Shown piece by piece: positions 5,174 through 57,258 of a stretch of 64,000 nucleotides of DNA. The stretch is taken from NCBI GenBank assembly GCA_021786105.1, contig JAJYNW010000015.1:12685-76684 (forward strand), written 5' to 3'. The stretch comes from a bacterium. Lineage in GTDB: Bacteria > Patescibacteriota > Microgenomatia > Daviesbacterales > UBA10151. Positions within the stretch are counted from its first letter, which is position 1. Each line of letters starts with the position of its first letter. The notes under the pieces were generated by a model. It worked only from the letters and a program-made list of their open reading frames with translations. It was not told the origin of the DNA and made no database searches. Position numbers and translations under genes: made by a program.

Positions 5174-5178
5174 AATAT

Positions 5179-44016: not shown

Positions 44017-44091
44017 TCCCCTGTAGCTCAACGGTAGAGCAGGAAGCTGTTAACTTCAAGGTTCGTGGTTCGAATCCACGCGGGGGAGCCA
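44017..44091 (+). tRNA. tRNA-Asn (GTT)
   Basis: Acceptor UCCCCUG/CGGGGGA, anticodon loop CUGUUAA, encoded CCA; 3' end overlapped by the recombinase ORF. Confidence 0.8.
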
Positions 44092-45579
44092 AGGTGTTTT
44101 CTGTATAACCTGCTGATTATCGCGCAGTGTCGCGAAAATCGGAGTTGGGACAGTTGCAAAAATCTTCTTATTTTTAACCATTACCTTCTCATAAAAGAAC
44201 CTTAAGTAGTGCCGCTTCATAAAGGGTGGCGCATCCTTATAAGTCGCGTAAATATCGCGTGTGAAGGCCAATGTATCGTCAATCAGGTTGATATCGATTC
44301 TGCAGCGGTCATCGACATCCTGTAATTGTGTTTCCATTTGTCTTACCTGATCCTGTAGCTCGGTGTGCTTGCGCTTAAACACTTCCCGGTCGATTGTTCC
44401 CTCAATCAGCGCATCCTCAAGCTTATTTCTCTTCATCTCAAGGGCTAGTTTCTGATTAAGAATGCCCTGCTTGACACTTGTGGCATTTGCGCGGCTCTCT
44501 TCCAGTTTCTCGCGCGTTTTTCGGACAACGGCTTCGATAAAATCAGGGCTAAACTGCATATTCTTAAATTCCTGCTCAACCTGATACTCAAGATCATCCA
44601 CTTCTACATATGGTGCGCGACAACCATTTCGTTCTCGCTTAGGGCAATGATAATAGGCTATCTTGCCGCCTCGAGCGCGCAGTTTATGCGCGTTCTTATG
44701 CCATTCAGCCACATAACGCTGACCACATTCGGAACAGTAGACAAAACCGCCTAAGAGCCAGTTGTGTATTCGGCGACGCATTAGAAAGTTGCGATGCTTG
44801 GCCAGAACATACTGGCAGGTGTCATATATGTCTTTTGAAATAATTGGTATGTGATTGCCCATCTTTCCTTCGCCGTGCCAACGAATCCAGCCGTAGTAGA
44901 AGGGGTTGTTGAGAATGGTGTGAATAACGCTGTGACCCAAACCTGTGCCAGTTCGCGACAAGATATTGCGTTCTGCCAGCCAATCCTGAATCTCAATGAT
45001 GGAATAGTTGCCTGTGGAGTAAAGTTCATACAGTTCTTTGATAATTGGCGCAGTGTAGGGGTCAGGCTCGCAGGTTTTGCGCTCTCTGTCACCGCCAACA
45101 GTTCGGTAGCCAATAGGCGGTGGTGTAGGTTGCCAACCTTCCCGGAATTTTTGTACCAGCGCGTCACGCGTGCGCTGGCCGTTTACATCAGATTCCCATT
45201 CAGCGACACTAGCGAGAATATTAGCAATAAGACTCGATCCTTGCGTCACATTGCCTTCTAAGACAGAAATCATCTGAAGCCCTTTTGACTCGATCTCTTT
45301 GCGGGTATCGCGAAAATCTGAAACATTGCGCGCAAAGCGGTCGATTTTGTAGATAATCAGCGCGTCAACTTTGAACTCATCGACTGCTTTAAGAAGTTCT
45401 TGGAAGGCTGGGCGTTGCGTGGTGCGCCCGCTTTTGCCATCATCGAGAAATATGTGCTTTACATGGTAATCGTGGCTACGCGCATAATCCATACAGGCGC
45501 GTTTTTGGTTCTCCAACGAGAAGCCTTCAGTCGCCTGTTCATCGGTTGAAACGCGCAGGTATAAGTAGCAGGTATTCAT
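44056..45579 (-). CDS. Large serine recombinase (resolvase-family catalytic domain + recombinase domain + zinc ribbon)
   Basis: YLRVSTDEQ catalytic Ser motif, DRFARN; CSECGQ...YYHC zinc ribbon. The track ORF extends to 45816, but the Met at 45579 precedes the catalytic motif. The last 12 aa are read-through into the tRNA. Confidence 0.8.
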   Translation of the reverse strand: MNTCYLYLRVSTDEQATEGFSLENQKRACMDYARSHDYHVKHIFLDDGKSGRTTQRPAFQELLKAVDEFKVDALIIYKIDRFARNVSDFRDTRKEIESKGLQMISVLEGNVTQGSSLIANILASVAEWESDVNGQRTRDALVQKFREGWQPTPPPIGYRTVGGDRERKTCEPDPYTAPIIKELYELYSTGNYSIIEIQDWLAERNILSRTGTGLGHSVIHTILNNPFYYGWIRWHGEGKMGNHIPIISKDIYDTCQYVLAKHRNFLMRRRIHNWLLGGFVYCSECGQRYVAEWHKNAHKLRARGGKIAYYHCPKRERNGCRAPYVEVDDLEYQVEQEFKNMQFSPDFIEAVVRKTREKLEESRANATSVKQGILNQKLALEMKRNKLEDALIEGTIDREVFKRKHTELQDQVRQMETQLQDVDDRCRIDINLIDDTLAFTRDIYATYKDAPPFMKRHYLRFFYEKVMVKNKKIFATVPTPIFATLRDNQQVIQKTPWLPRVDSNHEP

Positions 45580-45788
45580 ATTCCCCGGTTTAGGTCGCTG
45601 AACCTCATTTTCATCGGGCGCTGTCCGTATCTTCGTGCTATCTTTGCGGCTTCTTTGTTGATTATGTCCAGATACGGCTTCGTTTTTTCTTTCGCCTGCT
45701 CGTAGGTCATCACGCCATGTCGCATCGCCAGATGTATCGCGCGCGTCTCTGCCAGCAATTCTCGCAAGTTTATCTTTTCGTTCTTCAT
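45576..45788 (-). CDS. Small hypothetical protein upstream of the recombinase
   Basis: 70 aa, helical; stop overlaps the recombinase start. Confidence 0.3.
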   Translation of the reverse strand: MKNEKINLRELLAETRAIHLAMRHGVMTYEQAKEKTKPYLDIINKEAAKIARRYGQRPMKMRFSDLNRGI

Positions 45789-45840
45789 AATGTCTTATAG
45801 TCGTATCAATATTCATAAGATTTTTAGCTTATTGCAAGCC

Positions 45841-46227
45841 TTAAGTTTGATTTTCCTTTGCGCGTTTCCAAGTCGCCACATCGGTAAAGATAATACTTAA
45901 CGGCTCGCCATCCTTACTCTCGTGCTGTATCCTGTCGGTCTCAATCATTCCGTGGTCTGATTTCAAAAGAAAGATAATGACAGAAGGGCTTTTAAGTCCA
46001 AGTGTCTTTAGGGTCAGCCGTTGGTGATCCATTATGCGGTCTACCGCTCCGCAAAAGTCCTCATTAGCCTCGGACCAGCGTTTTAGACTATCTGTACTTA
46101 CCCCTAAACGCTCGGCAAACTCTTCAAGAAAAGGTATTTTCCGGGCGTTTTTGCACTCTATGAGGTACTTTTCCGCCTCTTTTATAAACTCTCCTTTGTA
46201 CTTAGTTGGCCTACCCATTTTTGTCAT
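45841..46227 (-). CDS. Phage-type HTH protein (terminase small subunit-like N-terminus)
   Basis: MTKMGRPTKYKGEFIKEAEKYL resembles the phage Nu1/terminase-small HTH. Confidence 0.4.
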   Translation of the reverse strand: MTKMGRPTKYKGEFIKEAEKYLIECKNARKIPFLEEFAERLGVSTDSLKRWSEANEDFCGAVDRIMDHQRLTLKTLGLKSPSVIIFLLKSDHGMIETDRIQHESKDGEPLSIIFTDVATWKRAKENQT

Positions 46228-46982
46228 ACTGATTTTTTCTGCTGTTCACCATGTTTTTCAAAATATTCCTTAACTTTTGCATTAAAAACCTTGCCTTTGT
46301 TCTCAATAGTAGGATCCTGTTTTATCTCCCTGACATACTGATAAAACATGTTTGGGGGTAGTCCTTTTTCTAATGCGCGCAAATAGGTTAATTTTAGTGC
46401 CCAAGGATGGTCTGGCTCTAGCGCTATATGTGCCTCATTGGCCGCAACCTCACCCTCGTTAGTGGGATTAAAAAATTTACTTGTATAGTTTTTTTCCACT
46501 TCCATACCTAAAAACTCTTTATCGGCGACATATTCGCTTTTATTACTCTCTGTTGGATTTAATTCGCTTATATTAGATTGAGTAGCACTAGTGGTACCAT
46601 TTTGTATCCCATCCGTCTCCAAATTGGATCCATTATTATTAGTAAGTGAGGGTAAATCCGAAGGTTTATATCTATCACTTTTAATTTGTTGATACTTTCC
46701 CCAATTTATAAATTCAACAAACCACTCTTCAGTTTTCAGATTAGGCCACCAATATATCAATCCCGCATCGTGCATTTCTTCTAAATAATGCTTAATTTTC
46801 TTAAATGACCATTTCTTCAAAGGAACGACAGTACCTTTTATGGACTCCGCTTCTCCTCGCATTCTTCCATCATCATCAGCGTGAGCAATCATCCAAGTAA
46901 AGAGTAGCTGCGCAGGTGGGGAAAGTTTATTTACCTGCAACGAGGTTGATATTTTGTTATGTAACATTCGAGCTTTAGCCAT
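46224..46982 (-). CDS. Phage replisome-organizer-like protein
   Basis: N-terminal LFTWMIAHADDDGRM winged-helix-like region; Asn/Ser-rich middle. Confidence 0.3.
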   Translation of the reverse strand: MAKARMLHNKISTSLQVNKLSPPAQLLFTWMIAHADDDGRMRGEAESIKGTVVPLKKWSFKKIKHYLEEMHDAGLIYWWPNLKTEEWFVEFINWGKYQQIKSDRYKPSDLPSLTNNNGSNLETDGIQNGTTSATQSNISELNPTESNKSEYVADKEFLGMEVEKNYTSKFFNPTNEGEVAANEAHIALEPDHPWALKLTYLRALEKGLPPNMFYQYVREIKQDPTIENKGKVFNAKVKEYFEKHGEQQKKSV

Positions 46983-47241
46983 GATTATTTTTATTTATTC
47001 GCGCTAAGGCGATACCCTTTTTTATTCTTTTGCTCATTTGCTGTTTATAGTAGGCATCGGTTAGCTTTTTTGCTCGTACATGGGTAAGTACAAGATTTAC
47101 CCATTGTTCAGCAATTTTATCTATTTTCAGGTCCTTATTACTGTCGTTTTTGCTAATCATTTTTGTGAAAAAAGCCTGTCTTTTAATGACCTCAAAACTT
47201 CTGAGTATCGCCTCGCGTCGAGCTTTAAGCCACCAGACCAA
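46975..47241 (-). CDS. Small basic hypothetical protein
   Basis: 88 aa. Confidence 0.25.
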   Translation of the reverse strand: MVWWLKARREAILRSFEVIKRQAFFTKMISKNDSNKDLKIDKIAEQWVNLVLTHVRAKKLTDAYYKQQMSKRIKKGIALARINKNNHG

Positions 47242-47495
47242 TAGTCGTTGGCTAGTTGTTCACAAACAGATTTATTGGCAAAAATGAACCAGAAGAATTT
47301 ACTTTCTTTTTGGAGTCTTAGTAGTTGTACAGAAGAACAGATTAGCCCAGCTGCCTCGCCGAGGTCTTTCGTAAAATATTCATCAATATACGCCTTATCC
47401 ATATACATATATGATCAGGCATATCCGTGAGGTTGAATACACGAGGTAAAAACTACTTCAGCCTTATTTTGGAGCAATTTTGAGGATATTTGAGG

Positions 47496-47942
47496 TTATG
47501 GTTTAATTTCTACTTTACAATTCAGACCGAACCCCTTGTCTACAATAAAAAAGTCGTTAACCTTATCCTTCACCAAACCGAGCTCTTTTCTAATTGTTTG
47601 GATCGTATCTCGCGCTCTTCGATCTGGAGTTGAATCACTGTATTCGCGAGCCTTATTCAAAACCTCAGCTGTTTGATCGGCTGTATATATTTTCCCTGGA
47701 TATTGGATCAAAAGTGACAATAATAGATAGCCGTTGTCTCTAGGACCAAAGTGGCCTGTATGGTTTTTACCAGATCTGTCTATATAAGTAACATTTCCGG
47801 TGCTTTTATAAAATTCTAAAGTGTTCGATCGATCCGCTAACATACCCCGCTGATCTATTATTTTTTGTTTATTATTTCGTGGATTGGTTTGCCCAGAAAT
47901 TAAAACATAGTCCTGAAGTTGTTTATTTTTCCCCATATACAT
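47496..47942 (-). CDS. OmpR/CadC-type winged-helix DNA-binding protein
   Basis: LLLSLLIQYPGKIYTADQ...TIRKELG resembles trans_reg_C. Confidence 0.35.
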   Translation of the reverse strand: MYMGKNKQLQDYVLISGQTNPRNNKQKIIDQRGMLADRSNTLEFYKSTGNVTYIDRSGKNHTGHFGPRDNGYLLLSLLIQYPGKIYTADQTAEVLNKAREYSDSTPDRRARDTIQTIRKELGLVKDKVNDFFIVDKGFGLNCKVEIKP

Positions 47943-48009
47943 CTACATTTCCGGGCAGGAGATCTTTATTTTAGCAGAAAATTATGTTCAGTTCTTCTCT
48001 CTCGACAGC

Positions 48010-48681
48010 TTACAGCGAGGTAAGTCCGTCATACTTTGCGGCGCGGTGATTAGTGTTATCCGTAAAATAGTACTGAGCAATTTTGTATCCATAAGCGGTT
48101 TGGTCAAGTTCCAGCGCCATGCGCACTACCTTCGCGACATAGCCGACAAACTCGCCTCCAGATGGGATTATGCGCAACTCATCTACAATAACGCGCACTC
48201 GCGCGCCCTGTCGGCTCACGCTGCGCACATAATGCGCATCAACGGAGAAATTACGCCCTTGTGTTGCAAAAAGTCGCGCCGGGTTTGATACACCAACACG
48301 CGCGAGATCCACACCGAGTATAGAGTCTAGTTCTGACTGTTCCTCTTTTGTTTCAGGTGAAGAAAAGAAGTTCATGACTTTCTCCGCATCTCTTTGCTGT
48401 AGTGCGTTTTCAAAGGTATCCGTCAAAGCCACAACCTGTGTTTGTTTATCATCACTGACACCTGAAGCGCTAATTCCTTGCGCTTCGAGAACAATCTCGT
48501 TTCCGGTGTTTATCTGTTGAGTTTGGGGAGTAACGCGATGTGCAAACCACCCAATTGAAAAGCCCAGTAATAAGAATCCGGCAGGAACGAGTAGCATGAG
48601 CGCTTTGTATTTTTGGAAAGTGTTAAACATAATTTTATTTACCCCAAACACGAAAGATAATAAGACAAGGAACAGAGACAA
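48010..48681 (-). CDS. Membrane-anchored hypothetical protein
   Basis: Two N-terminal TM helices, soluble C-terminus. Confidence 0.3.
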   Translation of the reverse strand: MSLFLVLLSFVFGVNKIMFNTFQKYKALMLLVPAGFLLLGFSIGWFAHRVTPQTQQINTGNEIVLEAQGISASGVSDDKQTQVVALTDTFENALQQRDAEKVMNFFSSPETKEEQSELDSILGVDLARVGVSNPARLFATQGRNFSVDAHYVRSVSRQGARVRVIVDELRIIPSGGEFVGYVAKVVRMALELDQTAYGYKIAQYYFTDNTNHRAAKYDGLTSL

Positions 48682-48847
48682 TAATGCTTCCTAAAATAAA
48701 TTGAGTAAAGTTTGGCTCAGTCCAAGACCTTAGAACTGTCGTTCCCTGAGTTTCTACAACTGGGGTAAGTGTAAAAACAAACATTAGGGCGATCAAAACA
48801 ACCCAAACAGTCAAAATTACCTTTTGGCTTTTATTTAATGTTTTCAT
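48635..48847 (-). CDS. Small two-TM protein
   Basis: 70 aa. Confidence 0.25.
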   Translation of the reverse strand: MKTLNKSQKVILTVWVVLIALMFVFTLTPVVETQGTTVLRSWTEPNFTQFILGSIIVSVPCLIIFRVWGK

Positions 48848-49095
48848 TCTCCATGCTCACCCCCTTTGGGTTTTTGCTGGAGAGGAATGTAAAAGCTCCC
48901 CGCTAGCGATGGCTTGCGCCACCTGCAAACCTTTCGGTCTGCAACCTTCGCAGGTGCTCTAACGAGGAGCTGTTTCCTGCGAAGGTTTTGATGCCATGCC
49001 CCTTACGGGGTTTAGGCAATATTAAAATGTGAGGTAATTATACAACATTTGATGTATAATTGGGTGGAAGTTTTTTGTCTTAATAAGGGTATTAC

Positions 49096-49281
49096 ATGCC
49101 AAGAGCCATAAAACTATTAAGAATACGCGAGGCGGCGGAAATGTTGGGGGTAAACCCCGAAACGCTACGGCGTTGGGACAAAAGCGGCAAACTTAAACCT
49201 ATCATCATAAGTAAACGCGGTGATAGGCGCTATAAAAAGGAGGATATTGTACGGTTCCTTAAAAAACTTGCCGAACAATAA
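49096..49281 (+). CDS. Excisionase/MerR-type HTH DNA-binding protein
   Basis: IREAAEMLGVNPETLRRWDKSGKL helix-turn-helix. Confidence 0.55.
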   Translation: MPRAIKLLRIREAAEMLGVNPETLRRWDKSGKLKPIIISKRGDRRYKKEDIVRFLKKLAEQ

Positions 49282-49295
49282 CTATAAAAATAAAT

Positions 49296-51998
49296 ATGGA
49301 ATATGTTGATGAGCACGCCACGCGCAAAAAGTGGATAGACGATAAACTCAAAAAATCGGGTTGGGAAAACATTATCCCCTACAAAGAGGGCTTAGATACA
49401 ACCACACTACACAAAACCGCAGTTGAGGAGTTTGTTACCGCGACTGGACCCGTTGATTATGCGCTTTTTGCCAATGGTAAATTAGTTGCGTTTGTTGAGG
49501 CTAAAAAAATCGGTCTTGGTCCCCAAAATGTATTATCCCAAGCTCAACGTTATGTAAAAGGTGCCCAAGCTCAAGGACAGGAAGTGCCGTTTATTTATTC
49601 CACAAATGGCGAAGTGATTTGGTTCCAAGATTTACGCATAAGCCCAAGCCGCTCACGCCAAGTCGCGGAATTTCACACACCAAAGGCACTTATTGAATAC
49701 CTCACCAACCCGACCCATGAGAATGTACGTTGGTTTACCGATAACCCGCCCGATTATGCCAAGTTACGCTACTACCAACGCGACGCTATTGTTGCCATTG
49801 AAAACGCCATAGCTAATCACAAACGCTCAATGCTTGTTGCTATGGCAACTGGTACGGGCAAGACATTTACTATTGCCTCACTCGCTTACCGCTTGCTCAA
49901 ATCGGGTGTAAGCAAACGCATTTTGTTTTTAGTTGACCGTAAAGCGTTAGCCGCCCAAGCAGTGATGGAGTTTGCGGCATATGAGGCGGAAAACGGCTTA
50001 AAGTTTAACCAAATATACCAAGTGTATAGCCAACGTTTTCACCTAGACGATTTTGAAAGTGATGAAAAAGTTGATTTTAATATGGTACCCACAAGTTACC
50101 TTACCGACCCCGACGGGAACCAAGTATTTGTATATGTATCAACCATACAGCGGATGCAAATTAACTTATACGGCAAGGAGGGAATGTTTAGTTACAGTGG
50201 TGATTATGACCCCGACGATGATGCCGATAAAATTGATATGCCTATTAACGCCTTTGATACGATTGTTGCCGATGAATGTCATAGAGGTTATACCTCACAG
50301 GAAGTGAGCAAGTGGCGTGGCGTACTTGACCATTTTGATGCCTTAAAAATAGGACTTACGGCAACACCAGCGGCACACACAACTAGCTATTTTAAGGAAA
50401 TTGCCTACCGCTACACCTATGAGCAAGCCGTACAAGATGGGTATTTGGTTGATTATGACGCCGTAAAAATATCCTCAGGTGTTCGTATTAAAGGCATTAC
50501 CCTAAAAGAGGGTGAAGAGGTTGAGCAAGTTGATACCGAAACGGGAGCGCAACAACTTGATTTACTTGAGGACGAGCGGCATTTTGAGGTTGCTGATGTT
50601 GAGCGCGATATTACCGCGCCCGATAGCAACCGCAAAATTATCCAGGAGTTTGCAAAATATGCCCTTGAGCAAGAAAAAGAATTAGAGCGTTTCCCCAAAA
50701 GTTTGATCTTTGCCCATAATGACCTGCCACACACGTCTCACGCCGACCAGTTGGTTGATATTTGCCGTGATGTATTTGGCAGGGGTGATGCATTCGTGCA
50801 AAAAATAACGGGTTCACCCACCGTTGACCGACCGCTCACCCGCATAAAGGAGTTTAGAAACCGCCCCGACCCTCATATTGTTATCACCGTGGACATGCTA
50901 TCAACAGGTGTCGATATACCCTCAATTGAAAATATTGTGTTTTTGCGCGCTGTAAAATCGCGTATTCTCTTTGAGCAAATGCTTGGGCGTGGCACAAGAC
51001 TTTGCAAAAACTTCCCCAATGGTCTAGGCACGCTCGAAAAAACTCACTTTACGGTGTTTGACTGCTTTGACGGCACGCTTTTGGAAGCATTCAAAAATAG
51101 CACAGGTATTACCCAGGTCACACCAGTAAACCCAACCCGTACTATTGAACAAATTATTAGCGATATAAACAACAACATTGATGTTGAATACAATACGCGT
51201 TGCCTCGTAAAGCGATTGCAACGCATCGCCAAAAACATTACCTCTGAGGGTCGGGAAATGTTTGCTAAATACATAGCCGATGGCGACATTGCCGCCTTTG
51301 CCAAAAACTTACCCGATGCTTTAGCTACCGAAAGGGTTGCAACTCTTAAAATACTTACTGACCAAAAGTTTATTGACCTGCTTATACATTACCCGCGCCC
51401 CCCAAAGCGGTTTATACGCGCTATTGAGCAAGAAGACATTGTAGCCTCGGAATATATATTTAGGACAACCGACGGGCGCGAGTTAAAGCCCGAGGACTAT
51501 ATAACCCAATTCGAGCGGTTTGTTAAGGAAAACCCCGAACACATTGAGGCAATAAGCATTGTACTTAATAAGCCAAAAGGGTGGAACACGGAAGCACTTA
51601 AGGAATTGCGTACCTCGCTTGCCCAACAACCCGAACGTTTTACCGAGGAAAACCTGCGCCGAGCCTACAAATACCCGCTTGCCGACATTATTTCAATGGT
51701 TAAGCACGCCGCCAAAGATGAACCGCTACTGTCCGCCAAAGAGCGAGTTGATTTAGCAATGGCAAAAGTAATGGGTGATAAAAAAGTTACCGACAAACAA
51801 GAGCAATGGTTGGAGCTTATAAAGCTACACCTTGTTGAAAACTTAACAATTGATGTGCAGGACTTTGATGAAATGCCAATCTTTGTTAATCTCGGTGGAA
51901 GCTTTAAGCGCATTAACGCCGATTTTGACGGTAAGTTAATGCCATTTATAAATGAGATTAACGCAACAATACCAGCCGTTTATGCCTATGCAAACTAA
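49296..51998 (+). CDS. hsdR: Type I restriction enzyme R subunit
   Basis: Walker A MATGTGKTFT, DEAH box VADECHRG, helicase C motifs. Confidence 0.9.
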   Translation: MEYVDEHATRKKWIDDKLKKSGWENIIPYKEGLDTTTLHKTAVEEFVTATGPVDYALFANGKLVAFVEAKKIGLGPQNVLSQAQRYVKGAQAQGQEVPFIYSTNGEVIWFQDLRISPSRSRQVAEFHTPKALIEYLTNPTHENVRWFTDNPPDYAKLRYYQRDAIVAIENAIANHKRSMLVAMATGTGKTFTIASLAYRLLKSGVSKRILFLVDRKALAAQAVMEFAAYEAENGLKFNQIYQVYSQRFHLDDFESDEKVDFNMVPTSYLTDPDGNQVFVYVSTIQRMQINLYGKEGMFSYSGDYDPDDDADKIDMPINAFDTIVADECHRGYTSQEVSKWRGVLDHFDALKIGLTATPAAHTTSYFKEIAYRYTYEQAVQDGYLVDYDAVKISSGVRIKGITLKEGEEVEQVDTETGAQQLDLLEDERHFEVADVERDITAPDSNRKIIQEFAKYALEQEKELERFPKSLIFAHNDLPHTSHADQLVDICRDVFGRGDAFVQKITGSPTVDRPLTRIKEFRNRPDPHIVITVDMLSTGVDIPSIENIVFLRAVKSRILFEQMLGRGTRLCKNFPNGLGTLEKTHFTVFDCFDGTLLEAFKNSTGITQVTPVNPTRTIEQIISDINNNIDVEYNTRCLVKRLQRIAKNITSEGREMFAKYIADGDIAAFAKNLPDALATERVATLKILTDQKFIDLLIHYPRPPKRFIRAIEQEDIVASEYIFRTTDGRELKPEDYITQFERFVKENPEHIEAISIVLNKPKGWNTEALKELRTSLAQQPERFTEENLRRAYKYPLADIISMVKHAAKDEPLLSAKERVDLAMAKVMGDKKVTDKQEQWLELIKLHLVENLTIDVQDFDEMPIFVNLGGSFKRINADFDGKLMPFINEINATIPAVYAYAN

Positions 51999-53409
51999 TA
52001 CAAATATTGTCAATAAATTATGGGGATACTGTCATGTTTTGCGCCATGACGGTATGGACTACGGCGATTACGTTGAGCAACTAACCTACTTGCTTTTCCT
52101 CAAAATGGCGGAGGAAAAAGGGGCAGTTATACCCAAGGAATATTCTTGGTCGGTATTAAAAACTAAATCGGGTACGGAGTTGCTTGATTTTTATAGCGAG
52201 CTTTTGCGTGGGCTTGCCAAACAAGAGGGGTTATTGGGTGCGATATTTGTAGAGGCGCTTTCAAAGTTTACAAAGCCCGTAGGCCTTAAAAGGTTAATTG
52301 ATTTGATTGATGAAATTGAGTGGTCGGCGTTAAACATTGATGTTAAAGCCCAAGCCTATGAGGGGTTATTAGAAAAATCAGCCGCCGAAGGCAAAAAGGG
52401 TGCAGGACAATACTTCACGCCCCGTGTGCTTATCCAATCAATTATAAATGTAATGAAACCCGACCCAAGGGTGTCAAAAGATTTTACCGTTTGTGATCCC
52501 GCCGCAGGTACTGGCGGTTTTTTGCTTAGTGCTTACGAGTGGTTTTTACACCAAACGGGTGGCGCAATTAACCGTGATGATTTGGAGCGCATAAAGAAAA
52601 ACACTTATTTTGGCACCGAGCTTGTAGCACGTCCTCGAAGGCTTGCACTTATGAACCTTTATTTGCATGGAATAATTTCAAATATTCGCTTGGGCGATAG
52701 TATTTATGAACCCGACCGAGGCGAGAGGTTCGATGTAGTTTTGACTAACCCGCCCTTTGGTACCAAAGGTGCAAACCAAATACCCGAACGGCAAGACTTT
52801 ACGGTCGATACAAGTAACAAGCAACTTAATTTTGTCCAACACATTCTTACCATCCTTAAACCTGGTGGTAGGGCGGCTATTGTGTTGCCCGACAACGTGC
52901 TATTTGGCGACCAAGCCGCAGAGGTATTCAAAATACTCATGCAAGATTGTAACCTGCATACTATTTTGCGTTTACCAAGAGGTACTTTTACCCCATACAG
53001 CCAAGGAGTAAAGGCAAATGTAGTGTTTTTTACCAAGGGGATACCCACCGAAAATGTGTGGATATATGATGCACGTACCAATGTGCCAGGGATAACTAAA
53101 AAAGACCGTCCATTAACACATAGACACTTTGAGGAGTTTGAAAAGTGTTATGGCGATAACGCGAGTGGACAATCACCCCGTGATGAAAATCACTCTAAGG
53201 AAAACCGATGGAAAAAGTTTACTGTGGTTCAAGTTAAGGAGAAAAATTACAAACTGGATAGCTTTAAGTGGCTAAAAGAGGAAGACATTGAGAATAGTAA
53301 CGAGATTGGTGAACCAGAGGAAATTATTGTAGACGTAAAGTCTAGTCTTGAGGAAGCGCTTGCAAGCCTTGATAAGGTCTATGAGCAACTTACTAACGAT
53401 GACAAATAA
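51952..53409 (+). CDS. hsdM: Type I R-M N6-adenine DNA methyltransferase M subunit
   Basis: LWGYCHVLRHDG N-terminus, NPPFG catalytic motif, SAM-binding region. Confidence 0.9.
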   Translation: MRLTQQYQPFMPMQTNTNIVNKLWGYCHVLRHDGMDYGDYVEQLTYLLFLKMAEEKGAVIPKEYSWSVLKTKSGTELLDFYSELLRGLAKQEGLLGAIFVEALSKFTKPVGLKRLIDLIDEIEWSALNIDVKAQAYEGLLEKSAAEGKKGAGQYFTPRVLIQSIINVMKPDPRVSKDFTVCDPAAGTGGFLLSAYEWFLHQTGGAINRDDLERIKKNTYFGTELVARPRRLALMNLYLHGIISNIRLGDSIYEPDRGERFDVVLTNPPFGTKGANQIPERQDFTVDTSNKQLNFVQHILTILKPGGRAAIVLPDNVLFGDQAAEVFKILMQDCNLHTILRLPRGTFTPYSQGVKANVVFFTKGIPTENVWIYDARTNVPGITKKDRPLTHRHFEEFEKCYGDNASGQSPRDENHSKENRWKKFTVVQVKEKNYKLDSFKWLKEEDIENSNEIGEPEEIIVDVKSSLEEALASLDKVYEQLTNDDK

Positions 53410-54619
53410 TGGAACTTATAAAATCGGTGACATTTGTGACGTAAAAACGGGTAAAAAGGATGTTAATGCCGAAAATGTTGATGGAAAATATCCCTTTTTT
53501 ACCTGTGCGCAGGGTATTCATAAAATCAATACCTATACTTTTGATGATGAAGCTGTTCTTGTAGCAGGAAACGGTTTTTTTAACGTTAAGTATTACAAAG
53601 GCAAGTTTGACGCATACCAACGAACTTATGTGCTACACAATTTCAAAAGTAACATTAGAGGGAAATACCTTTATTACTTCATTAATCACAGGCTTGACGA
53701 TATAACTAAGGATAATAGAGGTAGCACAATAAGGTATATAAGGCTTGGTGATATTACAGAGCAACAGGTTTCCCTACCTCCAATTGAACAACAGGACAAA
53801 GCAATCGAACTACTCGACCAAGCAATACAAGAAATTAGTTTAGGAAGTGAAAAGGTTAGTAAATCACGATTGCTCGTTCAAAAGTTTAAGCAAGCAATTT
53901 TATCCGCCGCAGTTACAGGTAAACTTACAGAAAATTGGCGCGCAAAAAATTATGACGACGACACTTATCAAGATTTTAACCTTGAAAATGGGGAGGTTAT
54001 ACAAATCCCTGCACTTTGGGAAAGAAGGGCTATTGGAGATTTTGTTTTAGACATAGAGGCAGGCAAAAACTTTACTTGCCCCGAAGTGCCTGTAAGTGGC
54101 AACAATGTTGGGATAGTAAAAATTAGTGCTGTAACTTGGGGTGAATTTGATGAAAAGGAAACTAAAACCGTAGAGGATGAGAGTAAAATTGATGAAAAGT
54201 TATTTATTAACAAGGAAGATTTTTTAATCTCACGAGCAAATACAATTGAATTAGTCGGAGCTTCCGTGGTTGTTGGAGAGGTTAGGCATAAGATTATGCT
54301 AAGCGATAAGGTATGGCGTGTTAATTTTGAGGATATAAACAAGGAATATGTTAATTACTACCTAAAATCACGTATTGGCAGATCCGAAATTGAGGCACGA
54401 GCGACAGGCAACCAACAATCAATGCGCAACATATCCCAAAGTAACTTTAAGGCAATTAACTTACCTACTCCAAGTGATAATGAACAAGCCGAAATTGTAA
54501 GAATTGTAAAGCAATATCTTGAGATTGCAAACCAAGTTGAAAAGCAAATTGAAAAAGCCGAAGCACGGGTGTCAAAACTTACCCAAGCCATTTTGGCAAA
54601 AACGTTTAGACAAGAATAA
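53399..54619 (+). CDS. hsdS: Type I R-M specificity subunit
   Basis: Two target-recognition domains separated by a coiled-coil conserved region; starts in the hsdM stop (GATGAcaaaTAA). Confidence 0.8.
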   Translation: MTNNGTYKIGDICDVKTGKKDVNAENVDGKYPFFTCAQGIHKINTYTFDDEAVLVAGNGFFNVKYYKGKFDAYQRTYVLHNFKSNIRGKYLYYFINHRLDDITKDNRGSTIRYIRLGDITEQQVSLPPIEQQDKAIELLDQAIQEISLGSEKVSKSRLLVQKFKQAILSAAVTGKLTENWRAKNYDDDTYQDFNLENGEVIQIPALWERRAIGDFVLDIEAGKNFTCPEVPVSGNNVGIVKISAVTWGEFDEKETKTVEDESKIDEKLFINKEDFLISRANTIELVGASVVVGEVRHKIMLSDKVWRVNFEDINKEYVNYYLKSRIGRSEIEARATGNQQSMRNISQSNFKAINLPTPSDNEQAEIVRIVKQYLEIANQVEKQIEKAEARVSKLTQAILAKTFRQE

Positions 54620-54627
54620 AAATAACC

Positions 54628-55470
54628 ATGTCATATGTATCAAGTGGGTTAATTAACCAAGTATCGGGTGGTGTATCGCAAAGCGCCGTTGATGCAATAT
54701 CGGCGTTTCAAAACAATGTACGCTCCCTTTTACAACTAAGCTACGACACTTTTTTACAAGGAAGTTATGCTAACGACACCGAAATAAAGGACTTTAATGA
54801 TGTTGACATTGTGGCATTACAAAAACCATTACAAGGGCTACTTTCAAGTTTTAGCGCGTCAACAAACTTGTTTTACGACGTTAAAACTAAGTTGGAAACA
54901 AACCAAAATTATAGAGGCCGAATAACGGTTGGGCGCAAATGTTTAACCCTTGATTTAGGCACAAGAAAAGCGGATATTGTGCCAGCAAGACGTACGATGG
55001 GCGGGCAACCTAATGCTTATGGCGAGCCGATTTTAATTGGGCAAAACATTCCAAATTATCCAAAAACTCACATAAGTATCGGTCAAGCTAAAAACCAACG
55101 AACAAACAACAATTATAAACGTGTGGTTCGTATGGTTAAAAATTATGTAAACAAGTGGAACCTTAAAGGTGTAGCTCCTTCCTTTTATGTTGAATGTATG
55201 ATTTACAGCTACACCGACGCCACGTTTTCCAACGACCTACCTTACACACTTAACAATATACTTACACACATGGTTGGTAATAATTTCAGTGCAGGTTTTC
55301 GTACCGTTGCAGGGGACAAAATTGTAATTTCACAAACCGAGTGGTTTCCCCAAAGTTTTTTCGCTTTTAGGCAACACGTAGCGGCAAAGTTGCCTTACCT
55401 TAGTTCAGCGGTTATGGCTACCAGCGAAGCAAATGCAAATAGCTATTTCAGGAGCTTTTTTAATATATGA
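54628..55470 (+). CDS. SMODS/CD-NTase-like minimal nucleotidyltransferase
   Basis: GSYANDTEIKDFNDVDIVAL ([GS]x9-13DxD) and downstream KADIVPA third Asp. Confidence 0.5.
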   Translation: MSYVSSGLINQVSGGVSQSAVDAISAFQNNVRSLLQLSYDTFLQGSYANDTEIKDFNDVDIVALQKPLQGLLSSFSASTNLFYDVKTKLETNQNYRGRITVGRKCLTLDLGTRKADIVPARRTMGGQPNAYGEPILIGQNIPNYPKTHISIGQAKNQRTNNNYKRVVRMVKNYVNKWNLKGVAPSFYVECMIYSYTDATFSNDLPYTLNNILTHMVGNNFSAGFRTVAGDKIVISQTEWFPQSFFAFRQHVAAKLPYLSSAVMATSEANANSYFRSFFNI

Positions 55471-56063
55471 AAGACCAGCAAAAGTACATTACATCAATAG
55501 TTTTGCTTGTAACTGCAATTTTTATTTTTGGCGAGTGGGTTGAAACATGGTTTGGCAAGGGAATTGCCTCATTTATTACATCAATTAGCACCGTTAGCGT
55601 AATTATTTATGGTTTATACCTTGCTTGGGATAAGTGGCTGTGGAAACAAAAAGGGTTAGCTTACATTTTAAGTAAGCTTGTCGGTTTTTATGAATACCCC
55701 GCGTTAGATGGCAAATGGAAAATAGTATATGAAAGCACTTTTGGAAATACTACAAAAGGCGCGGGTGAAGCAACAATTCAACAAAGCTATTCTTCTTTAT
55801 TTATTGAGGGAAACTTTGGGCAAAATTCATCATTTGATAGTTATTTTGCTCAACTAAAACAAAAAGAAAATGGTAAATGGTTTTTAGTTTATACCTACCG
55901 CAATAAGCCACATAGTACAAAACTTACCAATTCACCTTCGGGTGGTATGCACGAGGGGTTTGCTTACTTGGACGTAGTTGATAAAAACAAGTTGATAGGT
56001 TACTACTCCAATGATGAAAACCGTAAAACTAGAGGCAAATTGACTTTTACAAAAATAAATTAG
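55467..56063 (+). CDS. Two-TM partner protein (SLATT-like membrane effector candidate)
   Basis: Two N-terminal TM helices then a 130-aa soluble domain; ATGA overlap with the NTase gene. Confidence 0.4.
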   Translation: MKDQQKYITSIVLLVTAIFIFGEWVETWFGKGIASFITSISTVSVIIYGLYLAWDKWLWKQKGLAYILSKLVGFYEYPALDGKWKIVYESTFGNTTKGAGEATIQQSYSSLFIEGNFGQNSSFDSYFAQLKQKENGKWFLVYTYRNKPHSTKLTNSPSGGMHEGFAYLDVVDKNKLIGYYSNDENRKTRGKLTFTKIN

Positions 56064-56067
56064 ACCT

Positions 56068-56526
56068 ATGATGAAATTATTAACCGAAGACTTTGTACAA
56101 GAGCAAATAATAAAGTATTTAACCAGCAAAGGGTGGGGCACGAGCCTAAAATCAAAAACCCTCAAGGAGCATGGGGTTGATATTAAGGTGCGCAATGATA
56201 AGTTTCCGCGGTATTGGCTTATTGAATGTAAAGGTGATGCTAGTACAAATGCCAAGTACCCAAAATCACATAGGGAAGTACACTTTAACCTTGCCTTAGG
56301 GCAAATTATTACCCGCATGCAAACCAAGAGGAGGGCTAGAGGTTACAAATACGGCTACAAGTACGGTGTAGGCTATCCTGCGTCATTTAGGGACTTGGTA
56401 ATGCGCCGTTTGCCTTATGATGTTTGCTATAAGCTCAATTTGTACGTGTTTTTAGTTGATGAAGGCGGTGCAGTGGAGAAACTTGAATGGCGTGATTTGA
56501 AAAATGCACAAGTAAAAGCTAAGTAG
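56068..56526 (+). CDS. PD-(D/E)xK restriction-endonuclease-fold protein
   Basis: HGVDIKVRND...YWLIECKGD (D...E-x-K) core. Confidence 0.45.
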   Translation: MMKLLTEDFVQEQIIKYLTSKGWGTSLKSKTLKEHGVDIKVRNDKFPRYWLIECKGDASTNAKYPKSHREVHFNLALGQIITRMQTKRRARGYKYGYKYGVGYPASFRDLVMRRLPYDVCYKLNLYVFLVDEGGAVEKLEWRDLKNAQVKAK

Positions 56527-56805
56527 CAACTTGGAACGCAGGGTCGCGCTGGAGTTTTTTAATTTCAAGCCACCGTTGCTTTAACTCACCCATATATCCA
56601 ACGTGTTGAAAGGCTTGGATGATAGCCTTAAAATCAATTGGTATAGGGTGTTTAGGCGCGGGGAGCAAATGTCAGGTACTAACAACAAGTACAAAAGCAC
56701 CATGAGCTTCGCGAAGATAACAGCCATTTCATGAAAAGAACCAAATAAGAAAAAAATGGTAGAATAGTGAAAGCGACGGGCAAAAGGTTCTGCGAGGAGG
56801 AACGA

Positions 56806-56900
56806 TGAATGAAAAACTATATTCGAAGAAAAAATTCTTCTCATTAATTCATGAAAAATTATATTCGAAGCATAAATACTTCTCATTAGTTTATGAAGAA
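56806..56900 (+). repeat. Three imperfect tandem copies of a gene-start segment (ATGAAAAAYTATATTCGAAG...)
   Basis: Copies at 56807, 56847 and 56891; only the third continues into the DUF1801 ORF. Confidence 0.6.
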
Positions 56901-57258
56901 CTATAAAGCAAAAGATGTTGATGAATTCATTGCAAGTGCACCAGAAGAAGCCCAGTCTAAACTTAGGGAAATAAGAGTGGTTGTAAAATCGATTATTCCA
57001 AACGCAGAGGAGAAAATAAGCTGGGGCGTGCCTTTCTACTGGTATCAGGGTGCTCTTGCTGGATTTACTCCATGTAAAAGCTATGTGCTCTTTGGCCTCG
57101 TGACCGTGCTTGACAATAAAGACCGCGAAACGTTCGGAAAAAAGGGTTACAAAACTGGCAAAAAAACCATACAAATCAAGTTCGACCAAAAAGTTCCGAT
57201 CACATTGATAAAGCAAATTCTAAAAACACAAGCAAAAATGAATGAAGCCAAAAAATAA
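56893..57258 (+). CDS. DUF1801 (YdhG-like) domain protein
   Basis: MKNYKAKDVDEFIASAPEEAQSKLREIR...EEKISWGVPFY typical of DUF1801. Confidence 0.6.
   Translation: MKNYKAKDVDEFIASAPEEAQSKLREIRVVVKSIIPNAEEKISWGVPFYWYQGALAGFTPCKSYVLFGLVTVLDNKDRETFGKKGYKTGKKTIQIKFDQKVPITLIKQILKTQAKMNEAKK

What the first reader, a model, noticed from the sequence alone, without database searches (positions are those of the whole stretch)
44017..56670. Higher-GC integrative island at tRNA-Asn carrying a serine recombinase, type I R-M and a second-messenger-like defence triad
Immediately 3' of tRNA-Asn(GTT), and overlapping its 3' end, starts a large serine recombinase gene. Phage-type HTH and replisome-organizer-like genes follow, then a winged-helix regulator, an excisionase-type HTH, a complete hsdR-hsdM-hsdS system and a nucleotidyltransferase/2TM/nuclease triad. 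Base composition is visibly GC-richer, with many CGCG codons, than the flanking genome. A weak tRNA-3'-like sequence (gcgcggggagcaa at about 56655) lies near where composition returns to AT-rich. So this is a defence island on a phage-derived integrative element.
Basis: partly seen in the sequence, partly recalled or inferred. Interest (0 to 1): 0.7.

Follow-up and report, generated by a model that had tools for sequence, protein, structure and literature searches.

The report
tRNA-Asn integrative defence element in CPR bacteria
This is a real 12.6-kb mobile element inserted by a serine recombinase at the end of a tRNA-Asn gene in a tiny uncultured (CPR) bacterium. It belongs to a widespread, apparently undescribed family that swaps anti-phage cargo and carries an orphan structured RNA (LOOT).

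Summary
The element runs from the GGAGC at the tRNA-Asn 3' end (44085-44089) to a second GGAGC (56662-56666). Three related elements in other hosts share the right arm and diverge immediately after that core.

Two claims fail. GC content is not raised (0.418 against 0.416), although CpG is enriched (observed/expected 1.07 against about 0.73). The "triad" is not a triad. CBASS here is a two-gene type I system, a CdnE-like cyclase plus Cap15. The third gene is a conserved gene of these elements. It also occurs next to unrelated cargo, and its best structural match is XisH, a cofactor of the cyanobacterial serine recombinase XisF.

The recombinase family (50-92% identity) sits at tRNA-Asn in about 50 of 85 metagenomic loci. 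A MerR-like gene heads a variable cargo slot. A LOOT RNA leads the backbone operon in 16 of the 20 loci where it was found. Host and element similarities disagree, and assemblies break at both cores, so the element has moved recently.

No prophage structural genes are present. A phage-satellite lifestyle is possible but unproven.

The parts
44017..44091 (+). tRNA-Asn(GTT), the integration target. Its 3' end supplies the B arm of attL.
   Evidence: ARAGORN and Rfam tRNA at 63.6 bits. A convergent tRNA-Asn overlaps the recombinase 3' end in 50 of 85 related loci.
44083..44089 (+). attL core GGGGAGC. The family-wide core is GGAGC, 44085-44089.
   Evidence: GGGGAGC occurs only twice on the + strand of the window, here and at 56660. 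Homology to the L122/L171 element starts at GGAGC. The contig of L083 ends at 44092, and a second contig of the same sample starts exactly 141 nt (= k) earlier.
44090..44125 (+). P' arm of the attachment site, with the conserved TGTATAACC / TTATTATAAC motif. It lies inside the recombinase 3' coding end.
   Evidence: Junction alignment of 47 loci. Third codon positions are also conserved, which suggests constraint at the DNA level.
44056..45579 (-). Large serine recombinase (507 aa, starting at MNTCYLYLRVSTDEQ).
   Evidence: Pfam Resolvase 2.9e-34, Recombinase 3e-15, Zn_ribbon_recom 2.2e-10. phrog_95 integrase 2e-104. NCBIfam CcrB 5.5e-44 and XisF 6.9e-34, both below their curated cut-offs. 368 homologs, mostly about 500 aa.
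45576..45788 (-). Conserved 70-aa helical protein. Its stop codon overlaps the recombinase start codon, so the two are probably translationally coupled. Candidate accessory or directionality factor.
   Evidence: tblastn finds it in 20 loci at 36-87% identity. It is better conserved than the overlapping frame that would extend the recombinase. No Pfam hit.
45841..46227 (-). 128-aa HTH protein resembling a terminase small subunit.
   Evidence: phrog_309 3.6e-8 and phrog_3064 4.3e-8. PF16677 GP3_package is on record for this gene and its homologs.
46224..46982 (-). 252-aa protein resembling a phage replication initiator.
   Evidence: phrog_1408 3.6e-10 and phrog_16167 1.3e-8.
46975..47408 (-). 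Two small backbone genes: a 61/88-aa ORF (46975-47241) and a DUF5659 protein (47157-47408).
   Evidence: DUF5659 at E = 3.2e-4, below the curated cut-off. Homologs occur in 16 and 7 loci respectively.
47496..47942 (-). 148-aa protein, possibly with a C-terminal OmpR-type winged helix.
   Evidence: Only a weak NCBIfam hit to the CreB C-terminus, E = 0.0011.
48010..48847 (-). Two membrane-protein genes (223 aa and 70 aa) at the head of the backbone operon.
   Evidence: Hydrophobic N-termini are visible in the translations. The 223-aa protein is conserved in 10 loci.
48908..49018 (-). LOOT RNA (Rfam RF03000). It lies 18 nt downstream of a TATAAT box (49042-49037) and 60 nt upstream of the first backbone gene, so it is read as the 5' leader of the backbone operon.
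   Evidence: Rfam 90 bits against a gathering score of 46.4. My own covariance model gives 94 bits and finds LOOT in 19 related loci. In 16 of these it lies between the MerR-like gene and the backbone operon, on the recombinase strand. Sequence context.
49096..49281 (+). 61-aa HTH_17/MerR-type (excisionase-family) DNA-binding protein. It is the conserved first gene of the cargo operon.
   Evidence: Pfam HTH_17 4.9e-13 and MerR_1 4.7e-13. TIGR01764 excise 5e-6, below its cut-off. A divergent homolog lies 2.0-6.6 kb upstream of the recombinase in 31 loci.
49296..54619 (+). Type I restriction-modification system: hsdR 49296-51998, hsdM 51952 (or 52039)-53409, hsdS 53348-54619.
   Evidence: Pfam ResIII and EcoEI_R_C, N6_Mtase 1e-63, Methylase_S. 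PADLOC REase_I 3.7e-97, MTase_I 2e-169, Specificity_I 2e-57. In L183 HsdR is 98% identical but HsdS only 29%.
54628..55470 (+). CD-NTase (CdnE-like, 280 aa). The motifs GS (QGSY), DVD and ADIV are all present.
   Evidence: PADLOC cyclase 2.5e-30. PDB 6e0k (Rm-CdnE) 4.7e-15, with the active-site motifs aligned. NCBIfam CBASS_cyclase_b 9e-17, below its cut-off.
55467..56063 (+). Cap15-type CBASS effector: two N-terminal transmembrane helices and a beta-barrel receptor for cyclic dinucleotides.
   Evidence: Pfam Cap15_CD_rec 1.2e-15, above its cut-off. PADLOC 2TM effector 2.3e-28. PDB 7n34 (Cap15) 1.2e-5.
56068..56526 (+). 152-aa PD-(D/E)xK protein with an XisH-like fold. It recurs in these elements and is not a CBASS component. 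Candidate excision-control factor.
56607..56666 (+). P arm and attR core (...CTTAAAAT..GGTATA..TTTAGGCGCGGGGAGC). The element ends at 56666.
   Evidence: Window, L183, L171 and L182 share this arm and diverge immediately after GGAGC. A contig from another MAG of the same species starts exactly at 56662.

Best explanation
Window 44085-56666 is a 12.58-kb integrative element of an uncultured Patescibacteria (CPR) bacterium. It belongs to a large family whose 507-aa large serine recombinase (LSR) integrates the element at the 3' end of tRNA-Asn(GTT), in the conserved DnaG-RpoD-tRNA-Asn neighbourhood.

Recombination (inferred). The crossover lies within or next to the 5-bp core GGAGC. This core corresponds to tRNA positions 70-74 by my own numbering of the tRNA. 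It is present at both junctions, and there is no long direct repeat. A reconstructed attP is an imperfect dyad of about 48-50 bp: GGTATA, 16 nt, GGAGC, 14 nt, TATAACC.

Architecture (shown). One half is a leftward 'backbone' operon. It starts with a LOOT RNA leader, continues through small membrane, DNA-binding, Rep-like and TerS-like genes and a 70-aa protein, and ends with the recombinase, which reads out through attL. The other half is a divergent rightward operon. It starts with a small MerR/HTH_17 protein, is followed by a variable cargo slot, and often ends with a PD-(D/E)xK protein.

Cargo in this copy (shown by homology). One part is a type I restriction-modification system, which restricts unmethylated DNA. 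The other is a two-gene type I CBASS. By analogy with studied systems, phage infection activates the CdnE-like cyclase. The cyclic dinucleotide it makes binds the Cap15 beta-barrel, and Cap15 disrupts the membrane, aborting the infection.

Further inferences, each with my estimated probability:
- The PD-(D/E)xK protein is XisH-like and helps control LSR directionality or excision, as XisH/XisI do for XisF (about 0.35).
- LOOT is a cis-acting leader or a processed RNA that controls the mobility operon (about 0.4).
- The MerR-like protein regulates the divergent promoters (about 0.5).
For: Gene content.

Boundaries:
- Left. Homology to the L122/L171 element starts at GGAGC.
- Right. Four independent junctions share the P arm and diverge right after GGAGC.
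- No copy of the tRNA 3' end (14 nt, up to 2 errors) occurs anywhere in the window or 46 related loci, as expected for a serine recombinase.

Family:
- 368 recombinase homologs.
- tRNA-Asn is convergent with and overlaps the recombinase in 50 of 85 loci. Others have a group I intron in the tRNA.
- Many homologs end in ...LPRxDSNxxP, which is the antisense translation of the tRNA T-arm.

Modularity:
- Cargo differs between elements. It is PLD-SNF2 plus an MmeI-like methylase in L086 and L090, hydrolases in L171, and other RM systems elsewhere.
- L183 has the same cargo (HsdR 98%, CD-NTase 90%) with a recombinase only 77% identical. L182 has the same cargo type with a recombinase 64% identical.

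Horizontal transfer:
- Hosts with RpoD 84-91% identical carry recombinases 51-69% identical.
- The closest recombinases (85-92%) sit in hosts whose RpoD is only 66-71% identical.

Recent polymorphism:
- Assembly contigs break at both cores.

Foreign signature:
- CpG observed/expected is 1.07 against at most 0.83 elsewhere in the window.

LOOT.

XisH-like fold. The identity of 2okf as XisH comes from PMC3424549.
Against: - No empty site (attB) or circular junction (attP) was recovered, so excision and integration activity are inferred rather than seen.
- The assembly fork at the left junction lies 3 nt beyond the point predicted from attR (44092 rather than 44089). The alternative allele is therefore not the simple predicted attB, and its nature is unknown.
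- GC% gives no support.
- The inverted symmetry of the reconstructed attP is weak and contains an indel. An ungapped search for it across loci found nothing convincing.
- The XisH link rests on fold only. There is no Pfam XisH hit, no PDB sequence hit, and no XisI partner. The protein is missing from L182, and in L173 it occurs without a recombinase within 10 kb.
- LOOT is present in only part of the family, and it lies on the opposite strand in L139, L165 and L170.
Confidence: 0.85

Rival explanations
1. The element is a phage satellite of the PICI type. It normally stays integrated. A helper CPR phage would induce it, after which it would replicate using its Rep-like protein and redirect helper packaging with its TerS-like protein. 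The cargo slot would correspond to the defence hotspot seen in known satellites. This is a refinement of the best explanation, not an exclusive alternative.
For: - The size (12.6 kb) and gene set resemble known satellites: integrase, regulators, a Rep-like gene (phrog_1408, 3.6e-10) and a TerS-like gene (phrog_309, 3.6e-8; GP3_package).
- There are no capsid, tail or lysis genes.
- The variable defence cargo resembles the hotspots of P4 and PICI elements (my own knowledge).
Against: - The TerS-like and Rep-like hits are modest, and the TerS-like hit could simply be an HTH domain.
- No primase or helicase, no capsid-remodelling genes and no cos or pac site were identified.
- No helper phage is known.
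- The recombinase has no relative in IMG/VR.
Confidence: 0.25
2. The last three genes form one second-messenger defence system, with a nucleotidyltransferase, a 2TM protein and a nuclease effector acting together.
For: - The three genes are co-directional and tightly spaced. The Cap15 gene ends at 56063 and the next gene starts at 56068.
- L183 has the same trio.
- The third protein has an intact PD-(D/E)xK motif.
- Nuclease effectors are common in CBASS (my own knowledge).
Against: - L182 has the same CdnE-Cap15 pair without the nuclease gene.
- The nuclease-fold gene is equally tightly joined to unrelated upstream genes in L171, L173, L175 and L176.
- It has no SAVED, CARF or other nucleotide-sensor domain, and no PADLOC hit.
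- Cap15 is already a complete effector.
Confidence: 0.08
3. The block is a decayed, immobile prophage or island remnant. It is now a fixed part of the chromosome, and its genes are retained only for defence.
For: - No attB or attP junction was observed.
- GC% equals that of the host.
- The recombinase homolog in L001 appears split into two pieces.
- L173 has the 152-aa gene with methylases and no recombinase nearby.
Against: - All backbone ORFs in the window are intact, and the recombinase keeps every invariant residue of the family.
- Contigs break at both cores in independent assemblies of the same species.
- Host and element identities are incongruent, and cargo modules have recently been exchanged (98% HsdR against 77% recombinase in L183).
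Confidence: 0.07
4. The element is domesticated and excises as part of a programmed process, like the cyanobacterial fdxN element (XisF with XisH and XisI). Excision would restore or alter a host function.
For: - The recombinase scores against the XisF model (6.9e-34, below its cut-off).
- The best structural match of the 152-aa protein is XisH.
Against: - Integration leaves the tRNA gene intact, so no interrupted host gene needs repair.
- Cargo is variable and defence-related.
- The element is distributed horizontally.
- No XisI homolog was found.
Confidence: 0.03

Closest known systems
Integrative elements driven by a large serine recombinase (SCCmec with CcrA/CcrB; prophages of the phiC31, Bxb1 and A118 type; Tn4451 with TnpX)
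   Same: - The recombinase has the same three-domain layout (resolvase, recombinase and zinc-ribbon domains).
- The crossover core is very short and there is no long direct repeat.
- The reconstructed attP is an imperfect palindrome of about 50 bp.
- The element carries accessory cargo.
- The best NCBIfam matches are CcrB and XisF.
   Different: - The target is the 3' end of a tRNA gene, a habit I know mainly from tyrosine integrases (my own knowledge).
- The recombinase gene reads out across attL, antisense to the tRNA.
- The hosts are CPR bacteria.
- A structured RNA leader (LOOT) is part of the element.
- All curated family scores are far below their cut-offs, so it is not a Ccr or XisF ortholog.
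XisF-XisH-XisI excision system of the Anabaena fdxN element
   Same: - A large serine recombinase is genetically linked to a small PD-(D/E)xK protein.
   Different: - There is no sequence-level XisH match (Pfam PF08814 is not hit).
- There is no XisI.
- The element does not interrupt a gene.
- It is not in a cyanobacterium.
- The role in excision is untested.
Type I CBASS with CdnE and Cap15 (Cap15 structure 7n34)
   Same: - It is a two-gene operon.
- The cyclase keeps the GS, DxD and D active-site motifs and aligns to Rm-CdnE (6e0k).
- The effector has two transmembrane helices and the Cap15 beta-barrel domain, above the Pfam cut-off.
   Different: - The cyclase is short (280 aa) and belongs to a small clade (53-90% identity) that, in every context checked, lies on CPR elements.
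- It is fused into one cargo block with a type I RM system.
- The signal molecule is unknown.
Defence hotspots of phage satellites and integrative islands (P4-like, PICI)
   Same: - A conserved mobility backbone is combined with a slot where unrelated defence systems replace one another between otherwise similar elements.
   Different: - The integrase is a serine recombinase, not a tyrosine integrase.
- No helper phage or packaging function has been shown.
- In L171 the slot holds hydrolase-type genes rather than defence genes.
LOOT RNA motif (Rfam RF03000)
   Same: - It is a full-length match (model positions 1-121) at 90 bits.
- It is found in the lineages OD1, OP11 and TM7 that gave the motif its name (my own knowledge).
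   Different: - Rfam lists it as an sRNA gene. As far as I know, no function or genomic context has been described; the supplement of the discovery paper was not available to check.
- Here it occupies a fixed place as the 5' leader of the mobility operon of a serine-recombinase element.

Membership tests
Large serine recombinase (integrase type) | An N-terminal resolvase catalytic domain with the nucleophilic Ser in a YxRVS(T/S) motif, followed by a recombinase domain and a zinc-ribbon domain | tested here: met
   All three Pfam domains score above their cut-offs. The motif YLRVSTDEQ is invariant across 21 homologs.
Large serine recombinase (integrase type) | Junctions share only a few bases of identity and there is no long target duplication | tested here: met
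   Only GGGGAGC is shared between the two junctions. No copy of the tRNA 3' end (14 nt, up to 2 errors) occurs in the window or any of 46 related loci.
Large serine recombinase (integrase type) | attP of about 50 bp with imperfect dyad symmetry around the crossover | tested here: inconclusive
   The reconstructed site is GGTATA, 16 nt, GGAGC, 14 nt, TATAACC. The symmetry is weak, and the ungapped inverted-arm scan was negative.
Large serine recombinase (integrase type) | Catalyses attP x attB integration, and needs a directionality factor for excision | not testable with these tools
   This needs biochemistry, or attB/attP junction reads.
Integrative genomic island | Discrete ends, defined by comparison with related elements in other hosts | tested here: met
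   The left end is at GGAGC. The right end is at GGAGC in four elements, each followed by an unrelated flank.
Integrative genomic island | Base composition differs from that of the host | tested here: inconclusive
   GC% is the same as the host (0.418 against 0.416). CpG observed/expected is clearly higher (1.07 against at most 0.83).
Integrative genomic island | Presence or absence varies between close relatives | tested here: inconclusive
   No empty site was recovered. Contigs break at both cores in the same species, and close hosts carry different family members.
Type I restriction-modification system | HsdR, HsdM and HsdS are all present and adjacent | tested here: met
   (PRK11448-type HsdR at 5e-179, below its curated cut-off).
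CBASS (type I) | A CD-NTase with the GS...[DE]x[DE]...D active site | tested here: met
   QGSY, DVD and ADIV align to Rm-CdnE 6e0k. PADLOC cyclase 2.5e-30. Pfam SMODS alone is below its cut-off.
CBASS (type I) | An adjacent effector with a nucleotide-sensing domain, and no Cap2/Cap3 or HORMA/TRIP13 genes | tested here: met
   Cap15_CD_rec scores 58.4 bits against a cut-off of 31.2. PDB Cap15 1.2e-5. None of the ten island proteins scanned against PADLOC hit a CBASS accessory model.
CBASS with a nuclease as third component ('triad') | The third gene co-varies with the cyclase and effector, and carries a sensor domain | tested here: not met
   It is absent from the CBASS of L182 and present with non-CBASS cargo in L171, L173, L175 and L176. 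It has no sensor domain.
XisH (PF08814) | A sequence match to the family model | tested here: not met
   No Pfam XisH hit appears even at E up to 10 for any of 24 members; only weak NOV_C and Mrr_cat hits are found. A profile search of PDB sequences returns nothing.
XisH (PF08814) | An XisH-type PD-(D/E)xK fold | tested here: met
XisH (PF08814) | Linked to a large serine recombinase and required, with XisI, for excision | tested here: inconclusive
   Linkage to three recombinase clades is seen. No XisI was found, and the requirement for excision cannot be tested here.
LOOT RNA (RF03000) | Scores above the Rfam gathering threshold over the full model | tested here: met
   90 bits against 46.4, covering model positions 1-121.
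Prophage | Genes for capsid, tail, portal, terminase large subunit or lysis | tested here: not met
   No such PHROG or Pfam hits occur among the backbone ORFs.
Phage satellite (PICI-like) | An integrase, a replication module and a packaging-redirection gene in 10-15 kb, and induction by a helper phage | tested here: inconclusive
   The integrase is present. The Rep-like and TerS-like hits are modest. Helper dependence cannot be tested here.

The most novel reading that the evidence does not exclude
The window holds one copy of a previously undescribed, CPR-wide family of self-contained integrative elements, possibly phage satellites. In this family a serine recombinase targets tRNA-Asn. An XisH-like nuclease-fold protein acts as its directionality cofactor, which would extend the XisF/XisH paradigm well beyond cyanobacteria. 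The orphan LOOT RNA would be the riboregulator, perhaps a ligand- or protein-sensing leader, that decides when the mobility operon is expressed. That would give LOOT its first function and give CPR bacteria their first defined defence-shuttling mobile element.
Probability: 0.25. Interest if true: 0.75.

Novelty: new variant of a known kind. Interest (0 to 1): 0.55.

Why it matters
CPR (Patescibacteria) bacteria have tiny genomes and are mostly uncultured, and their mobile elements and immune systems are poorly charted.

- This locus defines the exact ends, attachment core and modular layout of an element family that moves restriction-modification, CBASS and other cargo between CPR lineages. 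That makes cargo slots in CPR metagenomes easy to find: look between the MerR-like gene and the P arm next to tRNA-Asn.
- It gives a concrete genomic context and a testable role to LOOT, an RNA motif known since 2017 with, as far as I know, no assigned function.
- It suggests that XisH-like proteins may be a general class of serine-recombinase cofactors.
- A compact family of tRNA-directed serine integrases, with natural att sites inferable from many loci, could also interest developers of genome-engineering tools.

The defence genes themselves (type I RM, and CdnE-Cap15 CBASS) are ordinary.

Tried and rejected
1. A search for a direct repeat of the tRNA 3' end found nothing. I tried 25 nt with up to 3 mismatches in the window and 14 nt with up to 2 errors in the window and 46 loci. 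A long tRNA duplication of the kind made by tyrosine integrases is therefore rejected.
2. An ungapped scan for an inverted copy of the P' arm in each locus gave only chance-level matches.
3. The genome-contig scan anchored on RpoD, meant to find a close relative with an empty site, did not succeed. The nearest species has RpoD only 68% identical and carries its own, apparently split, recombinase copy. No usable empty site was found.
4. The IMG/VR scan with the recombinase found no relatives. An IMG/VR pattern scan for LOOT gave four pattern matches, none of which is LOOT by the covariance model. An independent reverse test of the link between LOOT and the element was therefore not possible.
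5. The 586-aa recombinase ORF with its N-terminal extension is rejected in favour of a 507-aa protein plus a separate 70-aa gene.
6. GC% as evidence for the island is rejected.
7. The supplement of the LOOT discovery paper is not held, so what its authors said about LOOT's gene context could not be checked. The XisF-XisH-XisI structure paper was not available either.
8. The afdb50 fold library was unavailable.
9. Sequence searches of the 152-aa protein against PDB, as a single sequence and as a profile, returned nothing.

Full report
**What is in the sequence**

- ARAGORN and Rfam place tRNA-Asn(GTT) at 44017-44091 on the + strand.
- A minus-strand ORF ending at 44056 has resolvase, recombinase and zinc-ribbon domains and matches phage integrase phrog_95 at 2e-104. 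It is a large serine recombinase (LSR), and its last 12 codons are antisense to the tRNA 3' end.
- Most of its 368 homologs are about 500 aa and start at the equivalent of Met80. A 70-aa ORF in another frame (45576-45788) is better and more widely conserved than the apparent N-terminal extension. The recombinase is therefore 44056-45579 (507 aa), preceded by a translationally coupled 70-aa gene.
- Upstream on the same strand lie a TerS-like HTH gene, a replication-initiator-like gene, DUF5659 and other small genes, and two membrane-protein genes.
- Diverging from these on the + strand are a 61-aa HTH_17/MerR gene, hsdR-hsdM-hsdS, a CD-NTase, a Cap15 effector and a 152-aa protein.
- Between the two arms, at 48908-49018 on the minus strand, Rfam finds a full-length LOOT RNA (90 bits against a gathering score of 46.4).

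**Composition**

- The 'higher GC' claim fails. The island is 0.418 GC and the window 0.416, and the island ranks 234th of 515 sliding windows of the same length. The recombinase (0.474) and hsdR (0.442) are GC-richer, but hsdS and CBASS are AT-richer.
- The remark about CGCG does reflect something real. CpG observed/expected is 1.07 in the island, against a mean of 0.73 and a maximum of 0.83 for all 12.6-kb windows to its left. The 2-kb profile rises at 44 kb and falls after 56 kb.

**Source and relatives**

- The window is from MAG GCA_027342865.1, contig DAHWPO010000001.1. The LOOT hit and the nearest relatives indicate Patescibacteria of the Microgenomates type.
- The nearest GTDB species has RpoD only 68% identical, so no close island-free relative was available.
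- The recombinase family is large and well conserved. A metagenome scan gave 80 further loci.
- A tRNA-Asn(GTT) is convergent with, and overlaps, the recombinase 3' end in 50 of 85 loci. Many of the remaining contigs are truncated at that point, and in L102 and L175 Rfam finds a group I intron exactly where the tRNA-Asn should be.
- Many homologs end in ...LPRxDSNxxP, which is the antisense translation of the tRNA acceptor and T arm.
- The chromosomal site DnaG-RpoD-tRNA-Asn recurs.

**Boundaries**

- Left end. The element in L122/L171 has a recombinase about 90% identical but does not abut a tRNA. It aligns with the window from GGAGCCAAG onward and not before.
- Right end. The window, L183, L171 and L182 share a P arm (...CTTAAAAT..GTATA..TTAGG..GGAGC). 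All four diverge into unrelated host sequence immediately after GGAGC.
- The element is therefore 44085-56666. It is bounded by the core GGAGC (GGGGAGC in the window). That 7-mer occurs on the + strand only at these two places in 64 kb.
- No longer tRNA duplication exists in the window or in any of 46 related loci, as expected for a serine recombinase.
- A reconstructed attP reads GGTATA, 16 nt, GGAGC, 14 nt, TATAACC. This is an imperfect dyad of about 48-50 bp. The P' motif TTATTATAAC is conserved even at third codon positions across the family. The symmetry is weak, however.

**Evidence of mobility (indirect)**

- Incongruence. Hosts with RpoD 84-91% identical to the window's carry recombinases only 51-69% identical. 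The closest recombinases (85-92%) are in hosts with RpoD 66-71% identical.
- Module exchange. L183 has MerR 98%, HsdR 98%, CD-NTase 90% and the 152-aa protein 89% identical, but its recombinase is 77% identical and its backbone genes differ. HsdS is only 29% identical, so the restriction specificity has been swapped.
- Assembly breaks at the left core. In sample ERZ27237183, one k141 contig ends at 44092. The contig that carries the island begins 141 nt earlier, which is exactly the k-mer length. In L087 and L088, the k141 contigs end exactly 141 nt beyond the GGAGC.
- Assembly break at the right core. A contig of a second MAG of the same species (GCA_027424735.1) starts exactly at the GGAGC of attR, window position 56662.
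- These breaks point to population heterogeneity starting at the cores.
- Caveats. No attB or attP sequence was recovered. The left fork lies 3 nt beyond the position predicted from attR, so the alternative allele is unidentified.

**Architecture of the family**

- A MerR/HTH_17 homolog lies divergently 2.0-6.6 kb upstream of the recombinase in 31 loci and heads the cargo operon.
- Cargo varies:
  - a PLD-SNF2 helicase with an MmeI-like methylase (L086-L092, L090);
  - other type I RM systems (L099, L155 and others);
  - hydrolase-type genes and a 1118-aa protein (L171);
  - RM with an AAA ATPase (L175).
- The hsdRMS plus CdnE-Cap15 block of the window recurs in L183 and L182.
- This is a conserved backbone with a cargo slot.

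**CBASS**

- The 280-aa cyclase matches PADLOC cyclase models (2.5e-30). It aligns to Rhodothermus CdnE (6e0k, 4.7e-15) with the GS, DxD and D motifs intact.
- The 198-aa protein has two N-terminal hydrophobic helices and a Cap15 receptor domain above the Pfam cut-off. It also matches PDB Cap15.
- No Cap2/Cap3 or HORMA/TRIP13 genes are present, so this is an ordinary type I CBASS.
- Its close relatives form a small clade (53-90% identity).

**The third 'triad' gene**

- The 152-aa protein has 357 homologs at 63-89% identity, with invariant D38, E53 and K55, which is a PD-(D/E)xK motif.
- It is not tied to CBASS:
  - in L171 it follows unrelated cargo;
  - in L175 it heads the backbone operon next to the MerR-like gene;
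  - in L176 it sits between cargo and backbone;
  - in L173 it follows methylases;
  - L182 has the same CBASS without it.
- The recombinases of L175 and L176 are only distantly related to the window's. The association is therefore with LSRs in general.
- 2okf is listed as XisH (PF08814), the fdxN-element excision controlling factor (PMC3424549). XisH and XisI act with the LSR XisF (cited in PMC5311408).
- There is no sequence-level XisH match and no XisI. I therefore say it 'resembles XisH in fold and linkage'. I do not call it a family member. I put its role as an excision cofactor at about 0.35.

**LOOT**

- Using Rfam and a covariance model built from eight hits, LOOT is present in the window and in 19 related loci, about 12 distinct elements.
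- In 16 of these loci (and in the window) it lies between the MerR-like gene and the backbone operon, on the recombinase strand. The exceptions are L139, L165 and L170.
- In the window a TATAAT box (49042-49037) lies 18 nt upstream of LOOT. The first backbone gene starts 60 nt downstream, with no terminator between. It therefore looks like a 5' leader.
- LOOT is absent from the five CPR loci anchored on RpoD and from the L175 and L176 elements.
- As far as I know, and as far as could be checked, no function or context for LOOT has been published.

**Verdict**

- The element is a new variant of a known kind: an LSR-driven integrative element carrying defence cargo.
They are the CPR-wide family, tRNA-Asn targeting by a serine recombinase, the LOOT leader and the XisH-like partner.

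Noticed in passing
window 48908-49018 (-); also L086, L094, L096, L098, L122, L152, L155, L160, L171, L183: A LOOT RNA (Rfam RF03000), an orphan CPR motif, sits inside the island as the apparent 5' leader of the recombinase-containing operon. It recurs at the same place in related elements.
   Followed up: yes
L122 11773-21270 (tRNA-Asn with intron at about 21210-21490): In L122 about 9.5 kb of other DNA lies between the intron-containing tRNA-Asn and the element. It includes helicase-like 771-aa and 571-aa ORFs and no recognisable recombinase. Both of its ends carry GGAGC. This could be tandem accretion of a second element, or of a recombinase-less element mobilised in cis.
   Followed up: partly
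L102 8113-8310, L122 21271-21470, L175 16012-16228; L182 1-90: The target tRNA-Asn of several relatives contains a group I intron in the anticodon loop, which explains why ARAGORN misses it. In L182 a GIY-YIG ORF lies just upstream of the tRNA. The window's own tRNA-Asn has no intron. This matches the recent report on tRNA introns in Patescibacteria (PMC13011429).
   Followed up: partly
window 56809-56934: The 5' end of the DUF1801 gene (ATG at 56893) is preceded by two tandem 42-nt near-copies of its own start (ATGAAAAACTATATTCGAAG...). There are therefore three in-phase 'starts' just right of the element.
   Followed up: no
window 35743-36163: The tmRNA is 421 nt long, and ARAGORN predicts an unusually long 33-residue tag (GTSYLSRAAGKMAEQMSDFGRNLLVGSTRVAFA). 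This could be a mis-call or an atypical CPR tmRNA.
   Followed up: no
window 16372-16595: A cobalamin riboswitch (52 bits) in a CPR genome.
   Followed up: no
window about 37456-38214 (from the gene call in L081 at 4941-5699): A free-standing 252-aa ORF with a faint LAGLIDADG_3 hit lies within the tRNA cluster (tRNA-Ser and tRNA-Arg genes at 37.1-40.6 kb). The same tRNA cluster is conserved near the element in L100, L102, L104 and L162.
   Followed up: no
L173 10734-10808: In L173 the homolog of the 152-aa protein follows two DNA methylases, with no recombinase within 10 kb. About 280 nt downstream lies a tRNA that ARAGORN calls Asn with the odd anticodon ATT. This may be a decayed or different kind of element.
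   Followed up: no
L065 12277-12349; L087, L088, L090, L099, L116, L161 right ends: Many metagenomic contigs stop at, or a fixed k-mer length beyond, the 3' end of tRNA-Asn. This site seems to be a general point where CPR assemblies break because strains differ there.
   Followed up: partly
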